DNA from: a virus
Taxonomy: Duplodnaviria; Heunggongvirae; Uroviricota; Caudoviricetes
Strand: one strand, 5' to 3'
DNA: 30,859 bases
IMG/VR virus record: IMGVR_UViG_2740892488_000014
Position 1 is the first letter of the stretch. Each line of letters opens with the position of its first letter. Below the pieces are notes generated by a model. It worked only from the letters and a program-made list of their open reading frames with translations, was not told the DNA's origin and did no database searches. The translations under genes were made by a program, and so were the position numbers. Shown one piece after another: positions 2,707 to 9,433 of this stretch.

Positions 2707-2904
2707 TATTAAATTTGGCTCCACGCCATAGATGTGTCAGCTCATATCTTATCTAATACACACAATAACTTTCTCATTCTTGGAGAATTATTTTTTTAAG
2801 GGTAGGTGTTGACGTTAGAGCAAAAGAATGGTGATTTTTTTGATGTGTATTACGTTGGAACTGATGGGAATAACTATCTGTTTTCAACGCACTGCTAATT
2901 TATC

Positions 2905-2926
2905 AAGGCCCTTTGATCAGGGCCTT
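2905..2926 (-). terminator. terminator-like hairpin downstream of the minus-strand ImmA/membrane-protein operon
   Basis: 8-bp stem AAGGCCCT / AGGGCCTT with a 6-nt loop, 25 nt beyond the stop of the 2951-3557 gene. Confidence 0.35.
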
Positions 2927-2950
2927 CGAAAGACTGTTGGACCGAGAGAG

Positions 2951-3557
2951 TTACTTGCGTTTAAAAAGGTATTTTGTCACGACCAGCACGAGGCCGAATA
3001 CCTCTGTCAAAGTACCGCCCATGTACAACTGTAGTGTTAAATCCTCAAATTCCAGCTTACCTGCGCCGTCGGCAATAAATACACCATTCATTATCAGAAG
3101 TTGGAAAGCAAGGATAATCAGGAACCATTTCCCGTATCGTTTTTTTAGAGCGATTTCTGCTTCAAAATCTTTGTTGTTGAGTTGTTTGCGCTCATGCTCG
3201 GTATCAAGTGAATTCACCTGTTTCACAGATGTGAACTCGGTCAAGATTTTACTCTCAGTACGGGTGACTTGTTGAGAGGGTGTAGCAGTTGGAATTCTTT
3301 TGCTAGACGCAGCTACAGCCATTTTGCGAGCTTCGGCAGCTCTTTTTCTGGCTATTCCGCGAATACGGACAGCCGTTTTTTTTGGGGGCGTGCGAAACCT
3401 TTGGCTGAGGTGAAGCTTCGTCAGGAGACTGAACCGGAGTTTCATCGTCCTCCGGCTCAACCTCTTCTGCTAACTGACGGTGTAGGTTGAGGGAATCCTT
3501 CAGTCTGCGTGCTACTTCCTGTTTGAAACGGCTGTTAAAATCGTCATCCGATGGCAT
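2951..3557 (-). CDS. hypothetical membrane protein (acidic N-terminal region, two C-terminal TM helices); frame change at a homopolymer
   Basis: Two overlapping minus-strand ORFs (3303-3557 and 2951-3460) switch frame at the T8 run 3376-3383; the upstream part of one and the downstream part of the other read as protein, the remainders as junk. C-terminal hydrophobic stretches WFLIILAFQLLIMNGVFIA and LTEVFGLVLVVTKYLF. Starts 9 nt after the ImmA stop. Confidence 0.4.
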
Positions 3558-3566
3558 TTTAAAGCG

Positions 3567-4056
3567 TTACCCCAACCTCAAGTTCTTTAAACGATAAGTC
3601 ATCGCATCGTCAGATACGCCAAAATAATGCGCCATTATATAACTTGGTTGACCGTCAGCGTGCAGTTTTCTGACCTCATCTACCGGCATCAGAAGTTCTG
3701 CTGCGAACTTGTTTGCAAAAATTTCATCAGGATGCGTTCCGGCGCTTGCGGTTTCGCCACGTAAATCAACGTACTCATATTCATCGCTATGCGATGCTTG
3801 CCGGGCGATGTAATGCCCCAACTCATGCCCACATGAAAAAACGTTGACGAACTTTGTTGTCATCACTGTTTAGAAAGATCGCTGGATCTTGATCTTTTTG
3901 TTTAATCAGTGCGCCAGAAACTTTCCCAGGAAGATCGGTAATAAAAACATCTAATCCCATGTCGTGAGCAATTTTCGCTGGATCAACAGGGAAACCACGC
4001 CCGCACCAGAACGTGTCCAGCACTCGCCGGGCGTGCTCTCTTGGGTTGGTAGCCAT
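3567..4056 (-). CDS. ImmA/IrrE-family (COG2856-like) HExxH metallopeptidase; frame change at a homopolymer
   Basis: HELGH zinc-binding motif followed by …EIFANKFAAELLMP…, typical of ImmA/IrrE peptidases. Two ORFs (3823-4056 and 3567-3866) join across the A6 run 3836-3841; removing one base gives a continuous ~163-aa protein. GGAGGAG Shine-Dalgarno upstream of the 4056 start. Confidence 0.6.
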
Positions 4057-4932: not shown

Positions 4933-5574
4933 ATGAAAACCTTCTATGAGGACTGGCCTGAAACTTTCGTTAGCCGGTTAGATATGTTACGGGCGTTGGA
5001 TGATCGCGGTTCGACCCGGAGGCTCTATCTTGAACGGACCGGGGCAATATTTGACGCTCTGGCAGAAGAGATACGTACAGTCGTTGCCGGGCATCCTGAA
5101 ATCGACGTGAGTGAACTTGATATCGGGCCGCTGTATCGCTATTACAAACGTGGAGAAAAGGGGAATCCGCTGGCTGACTTACTTATTGAGTTGGCTCCAC
5201 CAACTTGTGAACGGGTTCGTATATCTCCTGAAGTGTACATAATCCCGTATCTGTTTTTTGCACTGTTGATAGCGCAAGGCGCTGACAACGATGCCCGCGA
5301 TTTTTTCAATATGATGATGCGACCGTTAATCATCGCCTACCGTTTCAAACAACTGGCGCGATACCTGGGAACAAAGGGCGGAGGACGACCACAGCACAGA
5401 TTAAAAAGCGAAGCCATTGAACTGGCTGATCGTTTTTTTACTGAAAACCCGACAGCGCCATTATCGCGTGGCGTGCAATACATATCCGGTATTTTTGTGG
5501 CGAAATACTCTGACCCACCTGCAGCGTCGACGATTAGAAAATGGTTAATTCCAATTTACAGGAGTGATAAATAA
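4933..5574 (+). CDS. hypothetical protein, no family recognised
   Basis: ATG at 4933 with GAGGT Shine-Dalgarno 4 nt upstream (preferred over the GTG at 4897); 213 codons; typical enterobacterial composition; terminator-like hairpin follows. Confidence 0.5.
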   Translation: MKTFYEDWPETFVSRLDMLRALDDRGSTRRLYLERTGAIFDALAEEIRTVVAGHPEIDVSELDIGPLYRYYKRGEKGNPLADLLIELAPPTCERVRISPEVYIIPYLFFALLIAQGADNDARDFFNMMMRPLIIAYRFKQLARYLGTKGGGRPQHRLKSEAIELADRFFTENPTAPLSRGVQYISGIFVAKYSDPPAASTIRKWLIPIYRSDK

Positions 5575-5581
5575 TGACCAT

Positions 5582-5610
5582 AAACGGTTTAATCCCCTAT
5601 AAAACCGTTT
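5582..5610 (+). terminator. terminator-like hairpin after the 4933-5574 gene
   Basis: 9-bp stem AAACGGTTT / AAACCGTTT with an 11-nt loop, followed by AATAAAATT. Confidence 0.3.
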
Positions 5611-5691
5611 AATAAAATTCACGACGTGAATATAATTGTTCATTATTCCCTCATTGTATTTGGCGTTATGACAAATGCCATAAAATACTGT

Positions 5692-5699
5692 ATAAATAT
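5692..5699. repeat. left copy of the 8-bp target-site duplication ATAAATAT
   Basis: Identical 8-mer directly abuts both termini of the element (5692-5699 and 7585-7592). Confidence 0.75.
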
Positions 5700-5727
5700 G
5701 GGTCTTCCCCGATCATGGTGGGAAGAC

Positions 5728-6948
5728 TCAGTACGCCATATTCAGTTTCCCATAGTGGAACATAACTCCCAGTTTAAAGCGTTCCCGGTTTCGGTATCCC
5801 CTGGCCTTTATCCTCAGCAGTCTGATCTTGCTGTTCAGCGCCTCCGCATTTCCATTCGAGACGCGATGACGCATTGCATTCAGTATTCCGTATAACCGTT
5901 TTTTAATGGTTTTCGCTGCGTTTTTCATCATCGGCACATCACATTCAGACGCCAGCGATATCCACTGCAACCAGTCATTCCTGCGTTCTGTGCTCCAGGG
6001 GCGATCCCAGATATTTTTTGCCAGCTCTTTCAGTGTCCAGCACTGGCTTGTCTGTTGCATCTGTTCCCGCAACCACATCAGCTTTTCCTGCCGGGACTCA
6101 GTCATCCATTTGTCGCTGTACTGCCACAGGAAGCGGGTACCTTTGGCCTGACGACGACTTTCAACAGGGAGGTGCGGATGTTCATTCTGGCGGGTTTTAT
6201 CAACCACTTCGCCCAGTTGCTTCGCCACATGGAAGCGATCGAAGGCGATTTTCTCGACCGCATTGGGTAAATGGATACGCGCTGCTCTTATATAGCCCGC
6301 ATTCATGTCCATCGACAGTGTTTTGATGGCCAACAACTGACTGTCAGTAAGCGAACGGAGATAGCTGGCAAGACTCTCTGTGCCACGATCATCGGTTAAT
6401 GCCAGTGCCCGCCCGTCGCGATCAGATACCACGGTTATATACCTATGCCCTTTTTTAAAGGCGACTTCGTCTACATTCATATGACGCACTGATAAAGGCT
6501 TTTTAATCCGCGACAGGCCTCGCTTAACCGCGCGGGTCATGATGCCGTCAACGGCATTCCAGCTAAGTTTAAGTTGTTTTCTGACCGCATCAACGGTGCT
6601 GATTTTAAGCCATGAGAGCACGAACGATTCGAACAGCAGAGTGTACCGACTGCCGGAACCTGCCCACGGTACAGGCAGAGTCTGGCAGCCATGCTCCGGG
6701 CACATAACGCGGGGAACATCGGCTTCTACTAATGTCATGAACTGGCAGGTATCAAGGTGGCGCCATTTACGATGTCGGTGATCGTGAACAGAACAGGATT
6801 TCCTGCAGGTCGGACAGGTTAACTGAGTATTTTCAGCAATTCCGACTGTAACAGTAACGGAACCTGCATTTTCATCGAGGGTAAGGGATTTAACCTGCCA
6901 TGGTGCAGTCAGGTTAAGGATATGGGCATAGAGGGATTTTTCGTCCAT
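5728..6948 (-). CDS. ISL3-family transposase
   Basis: 406-aa ORF with an N-terminal Cys/His cluster (CPTC…C…H) and central/C-terminal region (…VDEVAFKKGHRYITVVSD…FDRFHVAKQL…) matching ISL3 transposase architecture. Confidence 0.85.
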   Translation of the reverse strand: MDEKSLYAHILNLTAPWQVKSLTLDENAGSVTVTVGIAENTQLTCPTCRKSCSVHDHRHRKWRHLDTCQFMTLVEADVPRVMCPEHGCQTLPVPWAGSGSRYTLLFESFVLSWLKISTVDAVRKQLKLSWNAVDGIMTRAVKRGLSRIKKPLSVRHMNVDEVAFKKGHRYITVVSDRDGRALALTDDRGTESLASYLRSLTDSQLLAIKTLSMDMNAGYIRAARIHLPNAVEKIAFDRFHVAKQLGEVVDKTRQNEHPHLPVESRRQAKGTRFLWQYSDKWMTESRQEKLMWLREQMQQTSQCWTLKELAKNIWDRPWSTERRNDWLQWISLASECDVPMMKNAAKTIKKRLYGILNAMRHRVSNGNAEALNSKIRLLRIKARGYRNRERFKLGVMFHYGKLNMAY

Positions 6949-6966
6949 ATAATTTCATTCTGAAGC

Positions 6967-7485
6967 TTACTTTAAACTGATATTATTATTTTTTGCCCAC
7001 TTTCTTAATCTTCCATTAGCGTTGGCGTAAGGCGAAGATGTGTTAAATGAGATCATTCTCCCCATCGTCCATTTTGTGTACCATGGTCTTCCATACAAAA
7101 TATCATCGGTACGATCATTAATAAGGTTCACAATCTCATTTTTTACAGTCTGAAGTTCAGCTACTAACAACTCATAACTTAACTCACTGTAATCTGAGTA
7201 AAATTTTTGAGCAAGAAGGCCAAGCTGATTCCATTTATAGCCAGTTTCCGGAAAATCGACAGGCAGACCTTTAGCATCAGAAGCGATCCACTTTACAACA
7301 AGAGCATTCCATCCAAGCAGATACGAAACGAGATCACGAACACTCATCTCCGTTCCTTTGGCGTGTCCGTCCATTGATTTATCTGAAGTAATTTCTGGTG
7401 GGATTGTGTTGAGGTAACTAATTAATTTACTAAAATTTTTATCAATAGCTAAAAGCAGTTCAGCTTTTGTTTGCGGCACACTCAT
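6967..7485 (-). CDS. ClbS/DfsB-like (DUF1706) four-helix-bundle protein, passenger inside the ISL3 element
   Basis: 172-aa ORF; motifs GHAKGT, LVSYLLGW, FPETGYKWN, LAQKFY, YGRPWYTKWTMGRMI and FNTSSPY match my recollection of this family; lies between the transposase gene and the right inverted repeat. Confidence 0.5.
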   Translation of the reverse strand: MSVPQTKAELLLAIDKNFSKLISYLNTIPPEITSDKSMDGHAKGTEMSVRDLVSYLLGWNALVVKWIASDAKGLPVDFPETGYKWNQLGLLAQKFYSDYSELSYELLVAELQTVKNEIVNLINDRTDDILYGRPWYTKWTMGRMISFNTSSPYANANGRLRKWAKNNNISLK

Positions 7486-7584
7486 AAGAATTCCCTCTCA
7501 TGTAAAAAGAGACACCATAAAGGTACTGTGTGGTGTTTGAAAATCGCTCAATTATGTACCACCCACCACAACAGGGGAAGACCC

Positions 7585-7592
7585 ATAAATAT
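7585..7592. repeat. right copy of the 8-bp target-site duplication ATAAATAT
   Basis: Identical to 5692-5699, directly outside the right inverted repeat. Confidence 0.75.
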
Positions 7593-7596
7593 ACAG
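7585..7596. promoter_or_regulatory. right half of a LexA (SOS) box split by the ISL3 insertion
   Basis: Removing the element and one duplication copy restores tACTGTATAAATATACAGgt, i.e. CTGT-N8-ACAG, about 25 bp upstream of the ATG at 7619; the left half is 5688-5699. Confidence 0.55.
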
Positions 7597-7618
7597 GTTG
7601 TGGCATTGGGGGGAAGAC

Positions 7619-7798
7619 ATGAATATTCAAGAATCTATAGGCGAACTACCGGAAACATGCCGGGCTGTTATCAAGCGTAAGGACGGACACATCGTTGGTG
7701 TGCGTGTTCTGACCGATGATGAGCGGATTGCCAGCCTGATGGCGTTTCTCGAGTTGGCAGAAATAGCTGGATATACTATTACACCCCCTGACGCGTAA
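7619..7798 (+). CDS. small hypothetical phage protein, first gene downstream of the disrupted SOS box
   Basis: 59 codons from ATG 7619, preceded by GGGGGGAAGA Shine-Dalgarno; the ORF track begins at an upstream TTG (7598). Confidence 0.4.
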   Translation: MNIQESIGELPETCRAVIKRKDGHIVGVRVLTDDERIASLMAFLELAEIAGYTITPPDA

Positions 7799-7875
7799 AA
7801 CACGGTATAATATCGGTGCTGGATTGAACACCCGGCATCATTTTCTGAACACTGCCGCGCCACCTGGAGTTAACC

Positions 7876-8472
7876 ATGGCGCAGCATTCATTTATCAGGG
7901 TATCCGGCGGTTCGCTAATACCCGCGACACCAGACACGCAACGCTGGTTGACTGAACGAGTCAAACCAGGTGCTGTTGTGTATGCAGATTTCAAACAGGC
8001 GCGTAATCCCGCGTTTCATCGTAAATTTTTCTCACTTCTCAACCTGGGCTTTGATTACTGGCATCCGTCCGGAGGGGCTATTTCTCCTGCGGAGCGCGAA
8101 CTGGTTCACGGCTACGTTAAGTTACTGGCGTATTACGGTGGACACGGTGATGTCATGGCAGAGCTGGCTGATCAGTATCTTCTCGATGAGTCGGAAAAGC
8201 GCGCGGGGAGTATCAGTGCGGTGAAGTCGTTCGAGGCGTTTCGCGCATGGGCGATTATGGAAGCTGGGTTTTATGACGTTCATCAGATGCCAGACGGCAG
8301 TTTGATGCGCGTACCTCGTTCAATCTCGTTTGCAGCGATGGACGATCTTGAGTTCGGTCAACTGTATTCAGCCGTTTTAGATGTGCTGTGGAATTATATT
8401 TTGTTCCGCACATTTGCCTCTCAGGAGGCCGCTGAAAATGCCGCCGCGCAGCTGCTGGATTACACATCATGA
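7876..8472 (+). CDS. lambdoid nin-region protein, YbcN/DUF1367-like
   Basis: 198-aa ORF with GGAG Shine-Dalgarno; stop overlaps the next start (ATGA); position and sequence recall prophage YbcN-type proteins. Confidence 0.55.
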   Translation: MAQHSFIRVSGGSLIPATPDTQRWLTERVKPGAVVYADFKQARNPAFHRKFFSLLNLGFDYWHPSGGAISPAERELVHGYVKLLAYYGGHGDVMAELADQYLLDESEKRAGSISAVKSFEAFRAWAIMEAGFYDVHQMPDGSLMRVPRSISFAAMDDLEFGQLYSAVLDVLWNYILFRTFASQEAAENAAAQLLDYTS

Positions 8473-8762
8473 AAAAAATCGACCTGAGAAAAGCTGCACG
8501 CAGTCGCGCTTGTACTGTGCGTATCCCCGGTGTGTGCAATCACAATCCTGAAACCAGCGTACTGGCTCATTATCGTCTCGCCGGAACGTGCGGCACAGCC
8601 ATCAAACCTCACGATATGCAGGGCGCTATCGCCTGCAGTGCGTGTCACGATGCCATCGACGGACGTACAAAAACGGATTACGAGCACGACTCATTGTTGT
8701 TGATGCACGCTGAGGGAGTTTTCAGAACACTGGCTATCTGGCGCGATGAGGAGTTTATCTGA
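8469..8762 (+). CDS. YbcO/DUF1364-like putative nuclease (lambdoid nin region)
   Basis: 97-aa ORF; Cys-rich signature RIPGVCNHNPETSVLAHYRL…ACSACHDAIDG matches the YbcO family as I recall it. Confidence 0.7.
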   Translation: MKKIDLRKAARSRACTVRIPGVCNHNPETSVLAHYRLAGTCGTAIKPHDMQGAIACSACHDAIDGRTKTDYEHDSLLLMHAEGVFRTLAIWRDEEFI

Positions 8763-9433
8763 TGAGTAACGAGTATTTATTGGAATATACCCGCATAAAA
8801 CTGCGCGCTGCATTGCGGGATTTGTCTGGTGGTTCTAAGGGGCAACTGGAAGCATTGTGTGAGCACCCACCGGCAGACAAAAACGCATACCCACGCAAAC
8901 ATATTCACCGTGTGCAGCTGGAGGACCGGACCGTTGATGCTCTGGTTACGCCAGTTTACGCTCTGGAAAGTTTCAGCAGACGTCGCCCCGCGCCGCCGAT
9001 GAGTGATTTTGAATTTGCTGATTCATCCTGGCGGCGTTCTGTGAACTCGCTGGATGCAAGTCAGCAAGCGTGGTTGCGTTATTGCTACGGTGGTAACCTG
9101 GCATTCAAACACCAAACAGCTATTTGTGAGGCTGTCTGGAGTCGCTATAAAGGAAACATCCCCGCGTCAACTCAGAGAAAAGTAGTTAAGCGCCTGCTTT
9201 CGTTGGTGTGGTTGTCCGTGCAGGCGGTCGCAGCAGCAAATAAACGCGAGGATTTTAAGGAGATGGCCGGATCTACCCTAGCAGGAATGCTGTCGGTTTC
9301 TCGTTCCACCTGGTGCGAAACATACTCCCTGCACTGGGTAGGAATGAAAGAGGCGGTGAGAGCACTTGATGAAGTGGCACTTCTTGCAACTTTGCATCAT
9401 TATCAGAACCATTTAGACGACGTTTGCGTATAA
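8762..9433 (+). CDS. putative late-gene antiterminator (Q-like), called by position
   Basis: 223-aa ORF directly after the nin-type genes and before a promoter-like region and the lysis cassette; no sequence-level match to lambda Q is claimed. Confidence 0.35.
   Translation: MSNEYLLEYTRIKLRAALRDLSGGSKGQLEALCEHPPADKNAYPRKHIHRVQLEDRTVDALVTPVYALESFSRRRPAPPMSDFEFADSSWRRSVNSLDASQQAWLRYCYGGNLAFKHQTAICEAVWSRYKGNIPASTQRKVVKRLLSLVWLSVQAVAAANKREDFKEMAGSTLAGMLSVSRSTWCETYSLHWVGMKEAVRALDEVALLATLHHYQNHLDDVCV

What the first reader, a model, noticed from the sequence alone, without database searches (positions are those of the whole stretch)
5700..7584. ISL3-family element with clear ends and target duplication, carrying a ClbS/DfsB-like passenger ORF
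Terminal inverted repeats (GGGTCTTCCCC…TGGTGGG at both ends in inverted orientation) and a perfect 8-bp direct repeat ATAAATAT (5692-5699, 7585-7592) delimit an 1885-bp element. Besides the transposase it contains a second ORF, co-oriented with it and lying between it and the right inverted repeat, whose motifs resemble the ClbS/DfsB (DUF1706) four-helix-bundle family, which includes a colibactin self-protection protein. Most ISL3 members carry only the transposase. The intact duplication suggests a recent insertion.
Basis: partly seen in the sequence, partly recalled or inferred. Interest (0 to 1): 0.6.

Follow-up and report, generated by a model that had tools for sequence, protein, structure and literature searches.

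The report
Known ISEc53; lands in SOS boxes
This is the already named E. coli insertion sequence ISEc53, which carries a colibactin-resistance-like gene; the less ordinary point is that it and its relatives insert almost only into LexA "SOS box" operator sequences, a preference I could not find reported.

Summary
Window 5700-7584 is an 1885-bp ISL3 element with 23-bp imperfect inverted repeats (19/23), a perfect 8-bp duplication ATAAATAT, a 406-aa transposase and a co-oriented 172-aa DUF1706 gene upstream of it.

It is not new. It is 100% identical to ISEc53, the element that interrupts fimB in E. coli ST131 and sits on pUTI89-type plasmids. Full copies occur in 657 of 5426 complete E. coli genomes. 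The passenger is identical to the crystallised EcDfsB (PDB 5COF) and 54% identical to ClbS. A 2025 preprint already describes a clbS-like gene beside an ISL3 transposase in ST131 chromosomes and pUTI89-like plasmids, evidently this unit.

The insertion is recent: 14 genomes have this site occupied and 419 have it empty.

One property seems unreported. The target is TACTGT-ATAAATAT-ACAGGT, which matches the LexA box consensus at 17 of 20 positions. Of 30 distinct complete insertions of ISEc53, ISKox3 and relatives (transposase 70-100% identical), 27 sit in CTGT-N8-ACAG with the duplication equal to N8. Of 103 distinct end flanks, 92 have CTGT. The neighbouring genes are often umuD-like or dinI-like.

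The parts
5686..5699 (.). Left half of the split target: TA-CTGT (5686-5691) plus the first copy of the 8-bp target duplication ATAAATAT (5692-5699).
   Evidence: The reconstructed empty site TACTGTATAAATATACAGGT matches the LexA consensus TACTGTATATATATACAGTA at 17 of 20 positions. It is intact in EC958 and in over 400 other genomes.
5700..5722 (.). Terminal inverted repeat at the transposase 3' side (GGGTCTTCCCCGATCATGGTGGG).
   Evidence: 19 of 23 positions match the other end. The same sequence ends ISKox3.
5728..6948 (-). ISL3-family DDE transposase, 406 aa (WP_000343765.1 in RefSeq annotation).
   Evidence: Pfam and NCBIfam matches. PGAP names it 'ISL3-like element ISEc53 family transposase'. 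It is 90% aa identical to the ISKox3 transposase.
6952..7550 (-). Captured cargo cassette: the clbS-like ORF with 65 nt of its native upstream region and 15 nt downstream.
   Evidence: It is 85.5% nt identical to a stand-alone chromosomal clbS-like locus of Citrobacter farmeri. ISKox3 lacks window 6949-7559 and has 42 bp there instead. GC is 37% against 50% for the transposase gene.
6967..7485 (-). Passenger gene: ClbS/DfsB (DUF1706) four-helix-bundle protein, 172 aa (WP_000115885.1). It is the first gene of a probable clbS-like/transposase operon, with an 18-nt gap to the transposase start codon.
   Evidence: PF08020 E=3e-54. 100% identical to PDB 5COF. 54% identical to ClbS, with ClbS Tyr55 conserved in the motif LVSYL.
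7562..7584 (.). Terminal inverted repeat upstream of the passenger (reverse complement GGGTCTTCCCCTGTTGTGGTGGG).
   Evidence: A CATAAT hexamer lies 29-34 nt inside this end. It may be the -10 of the element's own promoter. This is an inference only, because the consensus scan found no promoter there.
7585..7598 (.). Right half of the split target: the second copy of ATAAATAT (7585-7592) plus ACAG-GT (7593-7598).
7619..7798 (+). First prophage gene downstream of the split box (59 aa, phrog_340, function unknown). NinB-like, HNH-like and Q antiterminator genes follow it.
   Evidence: The IS now separates these genes from everything upstream.

Best explanation
Window 5700-7584 is a copy of ISEc53, a known ISL3-family insertion sequence.

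Anatomy. ISEc53 is an ISKox3-type backbone: two 23-bp inverted repeats and a 406-aa DDE transposase that makes 8-bp duplications. Into the short leader between one inverted repeat and the transposase start codon, a roughly 600-bp cassette was captured from an enterobacterial chromosome. The cassette encodes a ClbS-like protein with its own 5' region, so the passenger is transcribed ahead of the transposase. That co-transcription is inferred.

This copy. It jumped recently, most likely from the identical fimB or plasmid copy in the same lineage, into a lambdoid-type prophage. It landed in the centre of an SOS-box-like palindrome, TACTGT|ATAAATAT|ACAGGT, about 20 nt upstream of a small phage gene that precedes ninB-like genes and Q.

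Target choice. This is not accidental. The whole clade (ISEc53, ISKox3 and relatives down to 70% transposase identity) inserts with near-absolute specificity into CTGT-N8-ACAG and duplicates the N8. That motif is the LexA operator of Gammaproteobacteria. I infer that a symmetric transposase complex reads the two CTGT half-sites directly. I think guidance by the LexA protein itself is less likely. Because SOS boxes are common in front of umuD-like and dinI-like genes on plasmids and prophages, this preference delivers the element onto mobile vehicles.

Cargo. By homology it most likely hydrolyses the cyclopropane warhead of colibactin. [quoted passage not shown]
For: Identity
- 100% nt identity over 1885 bp to fimB::ISEc53 of EC958, JJ1886 and others, and 99.9% to the pUTI89 copy.
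- PGAP names the genes ISEc53 transposase and ClbS/DfsB protein.
- Totsika 2011 (PMC3203889) describes the same two-CDS unit with 23-bp inverted repeats.

Mobility
- 419 genomes have the site empty and 14 have it occupied.

Mosaic origin
- ISKox3 (1316 bp) aligns to window 5700-6948 and 7560-7584 only.
- The cassette is homologous to a stand-alone Citrobacter farmeri locus.
- GC is 37% in the cassette against 50% in the transposase gene.
- Relatives hold other genes in the same slot: a tandem-SH3 protein in the intact 1684-bp element of L108.

Targeting
- 27 of 30 distinct complete sites are exact CTGT-N8-ACAG.
- 92 of 103 distinct end flanks have CTGT at -12 to -9; the consensus flank is TACTGTATATATAT followed by the IS end.
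- All readable sites of elements with 70-100% identical transposase fit the motif, exactly or within one base of it.
- The window holds no other CTGT-N8-ACAG; 0.15 are expected per 31 kb.
- An independent ISKox3-like element occupies exactly the same prophage site, with the same duplication, in strain AVS0247.
- pUTI89 and IncX3 plasmids carry these elements in the box directly upstream of dinI-like/umuD or umuD-like operons.
- Of 40 distinct neighbouring proteins, 7 are Peptidase_S24 and 5 are DinI.

Cargo function
- Identical to 5COF and 54% identical to ClbS.
- Every ClbS-like protein tested by Silpe 2022, at 25-80% identity to ClbS, protected against colibactin (PMC8907063). Their panel includes proteins from Dickeya dadantii, Kluyvera intestini and Metakosakonia. 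This passenger is 76-81% identical to its Dickeya, Kluyvera and Kosakonia homologues, though I could not match those hits to the tested accessions.
Against: - No experiment on this exact protein was found. Taylor 2016 (PMC4773401) treated it as a DfsB homologue, with no evidence either way.
- No consensus sigma-70 promoter was detected upstream of the passenger.
- The fimB insertion sits in GTGT-ATATATAT-CCAT, which is not a credible LexA box, and in ST131 it has only a 5-bp duplication. The specificity is therefore strong but not absolute.
- Whether the prophage palindrome actually binds LexA is untested.
- I could not consult ISfinder, so 'ISEc53' rests on the PGAP label.
- The targeting may have been described somewhere I could not search.
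Confidence: 0.85

Rival explanations
1. The SOS-box preference depends on the LexA protein. The transposase would recognise LexA bound to its operator, or the DNA bend that LexA makes, rather than reading CTGT-N8-ACAG itself.
For: - The target logo extends to the TA flanks and the alternating AT spacer of the full 20-bp LexA consensus.
- Many targets are genuine SOS promoters, such as umuD-like and dinI-like genes.
Against: - The cleavage positions lie at the inner edges of the two CTGT half-sites. From my recollection of the published LexA-DNA structure, those are the bases LexA contacts, so bound LexA should hinder access rather than help.
- The fimB site (GTGT...CCAT) lacks the CTG/CAG that LexA requires, yet it was used.
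- T at position 4 of each half-site is nearly invariant in targets (97 of 103). From memory, many real E. coli LexA boxes have CCAG in one half.
Confidence: 0.2
2. The resemblance to the SOS box is coincidental. The element merely prefers AT-rich palindromic 8-mers, as is said of ISL3 elements generally.
For: - The duplicated 8-mer is about 90% A+T.
- fimB offers (TA)4 without proper half-sites and was hit.
Against: - C, T, G and T at positions -12 to -9 are each present in 97-101 of 103 flanks, and 27 of 30 sites have both half-sites. AT-richness alone cannot produce that.
- Two different elements hit the identical nucleotide position in one prophage.
- About 0.15 such motifs are expected per 31 kb.
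Confidence: 0.03
3. The passenger is not a colibactin-resistance enzyme. It could be a DfsB/Slf-type bacteriocin precursor, a transposition accessory factor, or a functionless hitchhiker.
For: - The family was first named for the Paenibacillus sibling-lethal-factor precursor, and Taylor 2016 crystallised this very protein as 'EcDfsB'.
- No direct assay of this protein was found.
Against: - ISKox3 and other relatives spread widely without it (1080 plasmid records at 99% identity or more), so it is not needed for transposition.
- The sequence starts MSVPQTKAELL, with no obvious signal peptide, and Taylor 2016 report no evidence of processing.
- It is far closer to ClbS (54% identity, E=1e-55) than to the Paenibacillus protein 5CIV (E=8e-19).
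- Every ClbS-like protein in the Silpe 2022 panel, including ones from Dickeya, Kluyvera and Metakosakonia, protected against colibactin.
- The ORF is intact and near-identical across hundreds of copies.
Confidence: 0.12

Closest known systems
ISEc53 (ISL3 family), the fimB insertion of E. coli ST131 clade C and Nissle 1917, also on pUTI89-like plasmids
   Same: 100% nt identity over all 1885 bp, with the same inverted repeats, transposase and passenger.
   Different: Only the location differs. Here it sits in a prophage intergenic SOS-box-like site with a clean 8-bp duplication. The ST131 fimB copy has a 5-bp duplication in a degenerate site.
ISKox3 (ISL3 family, 1316 bp), the 'ISKox3-umuD' context of IncX3 blaNDM plasmids
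   Same: Same inverted repeats, 90% aa identical transposase, 8-bp duplication and the same CTGT-N8-ACAG target.
   Different: It has no passenger. Only 67 bp lie between the outer end of the inverted repeat and the transposase start, against 636 bp in ISEc53.
ClbS, the colibactin self-protection cyclopropane hydrolase of the pks island (PDB 6ANR)
   Same: DUF1706 four-helix bundle, 54% identity over 166 aa, and Tyr55 conserved in its motif.
   Different: It is not linked to pks genes, it is carried on an IS, and its activity has not been shown directly.
The 'clbS-like transposon' of Maklin et al. 2025 (bioRxiv 10.1101/2025.11.17.686825)
   Same: A DUF1706/dfsB gene next to a single ISL3 transposase, on pUTI89-like plasmids and in ST131 C1/C2 chromosomes. 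This is evidently the same unit.
   Different: In the sections I read, the preprint gives no element boundaries, no ISEc53 name and no target-site analysis.
Sequence-specific or 'homing' transposable elements (IS30 hot spots, IS10 consensus, Tn7 attTn7, Tn5053 res-hunters); comparison from my own knowledge
   Same: A symmetric target consensus flanking the duplication. The preference steers insertions to a defined class of sites that is enriched on mobile vehicles.
   Different: Here the preferred site coincides with the operator of a global stress regulator, LexA. I did not find that reported for any IS.

Membership tests
ISL3 family insertion sequence | DDE transposase with ISL3 zinc-ribbon, HTH and DDE_Tnp_ISL3 domains | tested here: met
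   PF14690, PF13542 and PF01610 all match. NCBIfam NF033550 scores 328 bits against a cut-off of 180.
ISL3 family insertion sequence | Terminal imperfect inverted repeats and an 8-bp target duplication | tested here: met
   Inverted repeats match at 19 of 23 positions. ATAAATAT is present twice. An empty site with a single copy exists in 419 genomes.
ISL3 family insertion sequence | Multiple copies with identical ends in unrelated contexts (mobility) | tested here: met
   Copies sit in fimB, on pUTI89, in the prophage and in metagenomic contigs. The window site is polymorphic, occupied in 14 genomes and empty in 419.
ISEc53 (named ISfinder element) | Sequence identity to the ISfinder reference | not testable with these tools
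   ISfinder is not available. The name rests on the PGAP label 'ISL3-like element ISEc53 family transposase' on 100%-identical copies.
ClbS/DfsB (DUF1706) | Full-length PF08020 match and four-helix-bundle fold | tested here: met
   PF08020 E=3e-54 over residues 1-165. The sequence is identical to the solved structure 5COF.
ClbS-type colibactin resistance proteins | Conservation of the ClbS catalytic tyrosine. That Tyr55 is catalytic is from memory of Tripathi et al. 2017, which I could not read. | tested here: met
   The alignment has no gaps before residue 104. LVSY55LIGW in ClbS aligns with LVSY55LLGW here.
ClbS-type colibactin resistance proteins | Protection from colibactin, or cyclopropane hydrolase activity | not testable with these tools
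   Only by analogy. All ClbS-like proteins tested by Silpe 2022 protected. Whether their 'E. coli 69' or E. albertii proteins are this sequence could not be checked.
LexA operator (SOS box) of Gammaproteobacteria, as the target site | CTGT-N8-ACAG palindrome close to the TACTGTATATATATACAGTA consensus, in a promoter region | tested here: met
   The reconstructed site matches 17 of 20 positions and lies about 20 nt upstream of ORF 7619. 27 of 30 other targets fit the motif exactly.
LexA operator (SOS box) of Gammaproteobacteria, as the target site | LexA binding and SOS-dependent regulation at this prophage site | not testable with these tools
   No binding data are available. At other target sites the adjacent genes are classic SOS genes, umuD-like and dinI-like.

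The most novel reading that the evidence does not exclude
The ISEc53/ISKox3 clade of ISL3 elements is a family of 'SOS-operator-homing' insertion sequences. The transposase reads the LexA box (CTGT-N8-ACAG) and splits it, so each insertion rewires or uncouples an SOS-controlled gene. That includes the umuD-like operons on IncX3 blaNDM plasmids, the dinI-like/umuD operon on pUTI89, and prophage genes. ISEc53 couples this homing to a DNA-damage-protection cargo. In the accessible literature this specificity has not been described.
Probability: 0.55. Interest if true: 0.75.

Novelty: already known. Interest (0 to 1): 0.5.

Why it matters
As flagged, the finding is catalogued biology: a named IS, a solved passenger structure, and a published account of a clbS-like gene beside an ISL3 transposase.

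Two points give it wider weight.

First, the cargo probably gives colibactin immunity to the dominant multidrug-resistant E. coli lineage ST131. That makes the element a marker of competition with pks+ strains in the gut.

Second, this clade has near-absolute targeting of LexA operators. If this is truly unreported, it explains the 'conserved ISKox3-umuD context' on IncX3 blaNDM plasmids and the ISEc53 position on pUTI89. It also predicts where new copies will land. It implies that each insertion removes or rewires SOS control of error-prone polymerases, dinI-like genes and prophage genes. It would also offer a compact, naturally sequence-specific DDE transposase for mechanistic study.

Tried and rejected
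- Promoter scan of 5550-7750 found no consensus promoter upstream of the passenger. The CATAAT near the inverted repeat is therefore only a suggestion.
- Orientation bias relative to the SOS-regulated neighbour: the four complete ISEc53-type sites I inspected have the neighbouring gene beside the cargo end, but ISKox3-type sites show both orientations. I treat this as not significant.
- A LexA box inside the IS that might regulate the transposase or cargo: there is no CTG-N10-CAG in 5700-7584.
- The idea that the passenger is flanking host DNA is rejected.
- The genome-contig scan with the left-end pattern gave only 12 loci, many of them at contig ends. The broader inverted-repeat pattern on viral and metagenome contigs was far more productive, though it also returned chance hits that had to be filtered by alignment to the IS.
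- Literature searches: ISL3 with 'SOS box' gave 0 papers. ISL3 with LexA gave 8, none relevant by title, of which I read one. A six-term, any-two search of LexA and 'SOS box' with the four IS names showed only its top 25 of 268 papers, so it cannot exclude a paper pairing LexA with one of those names. Two ISKox3-umuD papers mention neither LexA nor SOS.
- Tripathi 2017 and Siguier 2014 are not held.
- The apparent 1815-bp pair in L072 and the OspG-containing arrangement in L264 are not clean elements, so I did not count them as cargo variants.
Full report
**1.

Window 5700-7584 is bounded by GGGTCTTCCCCGATCATGGTGGG on the left and its imperfect inverse on the right, matching at 19 of 23 positions. 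A perfect 8-bp repeat, ATAAATAT, flanks it at 5692-5699 and 7585-7592.

Two co-oriented ORFs lie on the minus strand. The first is a 406-aa protein at 5728-6948 with the zinc-ribbon, HTH and DDE domains of ISL3 transposases; NCBIfam transpos_ISL3 scores 328 bits against a cut-off of 180. The second, 18 nt upstream of it, is a 172-aa ORF at 6967-7485 that matches PF08020/DUF1706 end to end with E=3e-54.

Joining the flanks with one copy of ATAAATAT gives a sequence present uninterrupted in 419 complete E. coli genomes, at 100% identity in EC958 and JJ1886 among others. It always lies in the same prophage. The junction itself is found in only 14 genomes, including S65EC, S103EC, Ec55 and AR_0081. 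This is therefore a real, recent insertion.

**2. What it is**

The 1885 bp are 100% identical to the element that interrupts fimB in ST131 strains, and 99.9% identical to the copy on pUTI89 and related IncF plasmids. Full-length copies occur in 657 of 5426 E. coli genomes and in 203 plasmid records. RefSeq annotation calls the genes 'ISL3-like element ISEc53 family transposase' and 'ClbS/DfsB family four-helix bundle protein'.

Totsika et al. 2011 described this unit in EC958 fimB: two CDS, 23-bp imperfect inverted repeats and a 5-bp repeat. [quoted passage not shown]

The passenger protein is identical to 'EcDfsB' from UTI89, crystallised as PDB 5COF (PMC4773401). It is 54% identical to ClbS, and the ClbS tyrosine-55 motif is conserved.

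Maklin et al. 2025 (bioRxiv 10.1101/2025.11.17.686825) already report a clbS-like gene next to a single ISL3 transposase. They find it on pUTI89-like plasmids and integrated in ST131 C1/C2 chromosomes, and they interpret it as a colibactin-immunity transposon.

The flagged finding is therefore correct but already known.

**3. How the element is built**

The closest passenger-less relative is ISKox3: 1316 bp, 90% identical transposase, and at 99% identity or more in 1080 plasmid records. It aligns with ISEc53 over window 5700-6948 and over the last 25 bp, 7560-7584. In between, ISKox3 has 42 bp where ISEc53 has 611 bp (6949-7559).

That segment has 37% GC, against 50% for the transposase gene. 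From 65 nt upstream of the ATG to 15 nt past the stop, it is 85.5% identical at the nucleotide level to a stand-alone chromosomal clbS-like locus of Citrobacter farmeri. The cargo was therefore captured with its native 5' region into the leader between the inverted repeat and the transposase start.

The same slot is used in relatives. An intact 1684-bp element, with a transposase 72% identical, carries a tandem-SH3 protein there (L108).

**4. The target site**

The uninterrupted site reads TACTGTATAAATATACAGGT. It matches the LexA-box consensus TACTGTATATATATACAGTA at 17 of 20 positions, and the duplicated 8 bp are exactly the spacer between CTGT and ACAG.

I first saw the pattern when ISKox3 in an Enterobacter phage turned out to sit in TACTGTATATATATACAGTT. 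On pUTI89 the IS sits in TACTGTATATACATACAGCA, about 35 bp upstream of a dinI-like/umuD operon.

I then collected IS ends without reference to their flanks. I scanned genome, viral and metagenome contigs for the inverted-repeat core and kept only hits that aligned to the IS interior. The results were:

- Of 103 distinct end flanks, 92 have CTGT at -12 to -9. The consensus flank is AAAAAATACTGTATATATAT followed by the IS end.
- Of 30 distinct complete insertions with readable flanks, 27 are exact CTGT-N8-ACAG, 2 are ATGT-N8-ACAG, and the last is fimB.
- A separate protein-based retrieval, with transposase identity of 70-100%, gave the same picture.
- The window contains no other CTGT-N8-ACAG; 0.15 are expected per 31 kb.
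- In strain AVS0247 a different element, ISKox3-like and only 85% identical to ISEc53, occupies exactly the same prophage position with the same duplication.
- On a 46-kb IncX3 blaNDM plasmid, ISKox3 sits in TACTGT-ATATGCAT-ACAGCT directly upstream of a small-ORF/S24-peptidase (umuD-like) operon. This is the 'ISKox3-umuD' context reported in many papers without comment on SOS boxes.
- Of 40 distinct proteins encoded next to insertions, 7 are Peptidase_S24, 5 are DinI and one is GyrI-like.

The targeting of LexA-operator sequences is therefore shown. How the site is recognised is inferred.

**5. Intrinsic recognition or LexA guidance**

I favour direct reading of the two CTGT half-sites by a symmetric transposase complex, for three reasons.

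- The cuts fall at the inner edges of the half-sites.
- T at position 4 of each half-site is as invariant as CTG (97 of 103).
- The fimB site, GTGT-ATATATAT-CCAT, lacks the bases LexA needs and was still used.

LexA guidance, or occlusion of the site by LexA with insertion favoured during SOS induction, remains possible at about 0.2.

**6. Consequences here (inferred)**

The IS splits the palindrome. It also places 1.9 kb of oppositely transcribed DNA between the upstream prophage genes and the downstream genes: the phrog_340 ORF, the NinB-like gene, the HNH-like gene and the Q antiterminator. This may weaken late-gene activation of the prophage.

The cargo, if it acts like ClbS, would also damp colibactin-triggered SOS and prophage induction, as Silpe et al. 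2022 showed for every ClbS-like protein they tested (PMC8907063). Their panel includes proteins from Dickeya dadantii, Kluyvera intestini and Metakosakonia. This passenger is 76-81% identical to the Dickeya, Kluyvera and Kosakonia homologues found, though I could not match those hits to the tested accessions.

**7. Novelty and limits**

The element and its cargo are already known.

For the SOS-box specificity, I found no description in the searchable library:

- ISL3 with 'SOS box': 0 papers.
- ISL3 with LexA: 8 papers, none relevant by title; I read one.
- Two ISKox3-umuD papers that I read mention neither LexA nor SOS.
- A combined search of the four IS names with LexA and 'SOS box' displayed only the top 25 of 268 papers. 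It therefore cannot rule out a paper that pairs an IS name with LexA.

I could not consult ISfinder, TnPedia or subscription journals. I give about 0.55 that the specificity is both real and unreported. That it is real is close to certain.

Noticed in passing
window 5686-5699 and 7585-7598; also L003, L005, L279 and about 100 further loci: ISEc53, ISKox3 and relatives insert almost exclusively into CTGT-N8-ACAG, the LexA SOS-box motif, and duplicate the N8. Of 103 distinct end flanks 92 fit, and of 30 complete sites 27 fit. No report of this was found in the searchable literature.
   Followed up: yes
L237 2721-4036 (E. coli AVS0247 chromosome): The same prophage site as in the window is occupied by a different, passenger-less 1316-bp ISKox3-like element with the same duplication, ATAAATAT. 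This is an independent, convergent insertion.
   Followed up: yes
L108 6566-8249 (viral contig): An intact 1684-bp relative (transposase 72% identical) carries a different passenger, a 116-aa tandem-SH3 protein, in the same slot between the inverted repeat and the transposase gene. It sits in an SOS box next to a umuD-like gene.
   Followed up: partly
L264 767-2721 (viral contig): An OspG-like type III effector kinase gene (PDB 4BVU, E=2.5e-115) lies between an ISKox3-type inverted repeat and a transposase 88% identical to that of ISEc53. The other inverted repeat is missing and the flank is irregular, so this is probably a rearrangement rather than a mobile unit.
   Followed up: partly
L241 about 2902-3576 (Edwardsiella tarda chromosome): A diverged ISEc53-like remnant: an inverted repeat (GGGCCTTCCC...) preceded by CTGT-TCATACAT, a clbS-like gene (91% aa identical), and a transposase gene truncated after about 25 codons. 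The cargo has been left behind without a working transposase.
   Followed up: partly
L010, L033, L107, L244, L245: Some elements have CTGT and ACAG half-boxes on both sides but different 8-mers left and right. This suggests recombination between copies sitting in different SOS boxes, that is, IS-mediated inversions or deletions.
   Followed up: no
L004 1501-3385 (EC958 fimB) against L236 (K-12 fimB): The ST131 fimB copy sits in a degenerate site (GTGT-ATATATAT-CCAT) and has only a 5-bp duplication, with 3 nt missing at one junction. This agrees with Totsika 2011, who also note that Nissle 1917 has the insertion at the same point without the 3-bp deletion.
   Followed up: yes
L279 2551-3149; L003 3841-4409; many viral loci: A recurrent 79-aa protein family (MPRxxDI..., phrog_3893, no Pfam match) is the first gene after the SOS box, followed by an S24 peptidase (umuD-like) gene, on IncX3 plasmids and prophages. 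It is likely an uncharacterised SOS-regulated gene.
   Followed up: partly
window 4933-5574 and 7619-9000: The IS lies between a phrog_5215 gene and the genes for phrog_340, a NinB-like protein, an HNH-like protein and the Q antiterminator of a prophage that also has an ImmA/IrrE-type peptidase. The insertion may uncouple Q from upstream transcription.
   Followed up: no
L238-L240 3001-3519 (Citrobacter farmeri): A stand-alone chromosomal clbS-like gene (87% aa identical) lies between a DUF4310-4312 operon and a LysR regulator. Its nucleotide homology to the ISEc53 cargo cassette extends into the 5' untranslated region, so this is a plausible source type for the cargo.
   Followed up: partly
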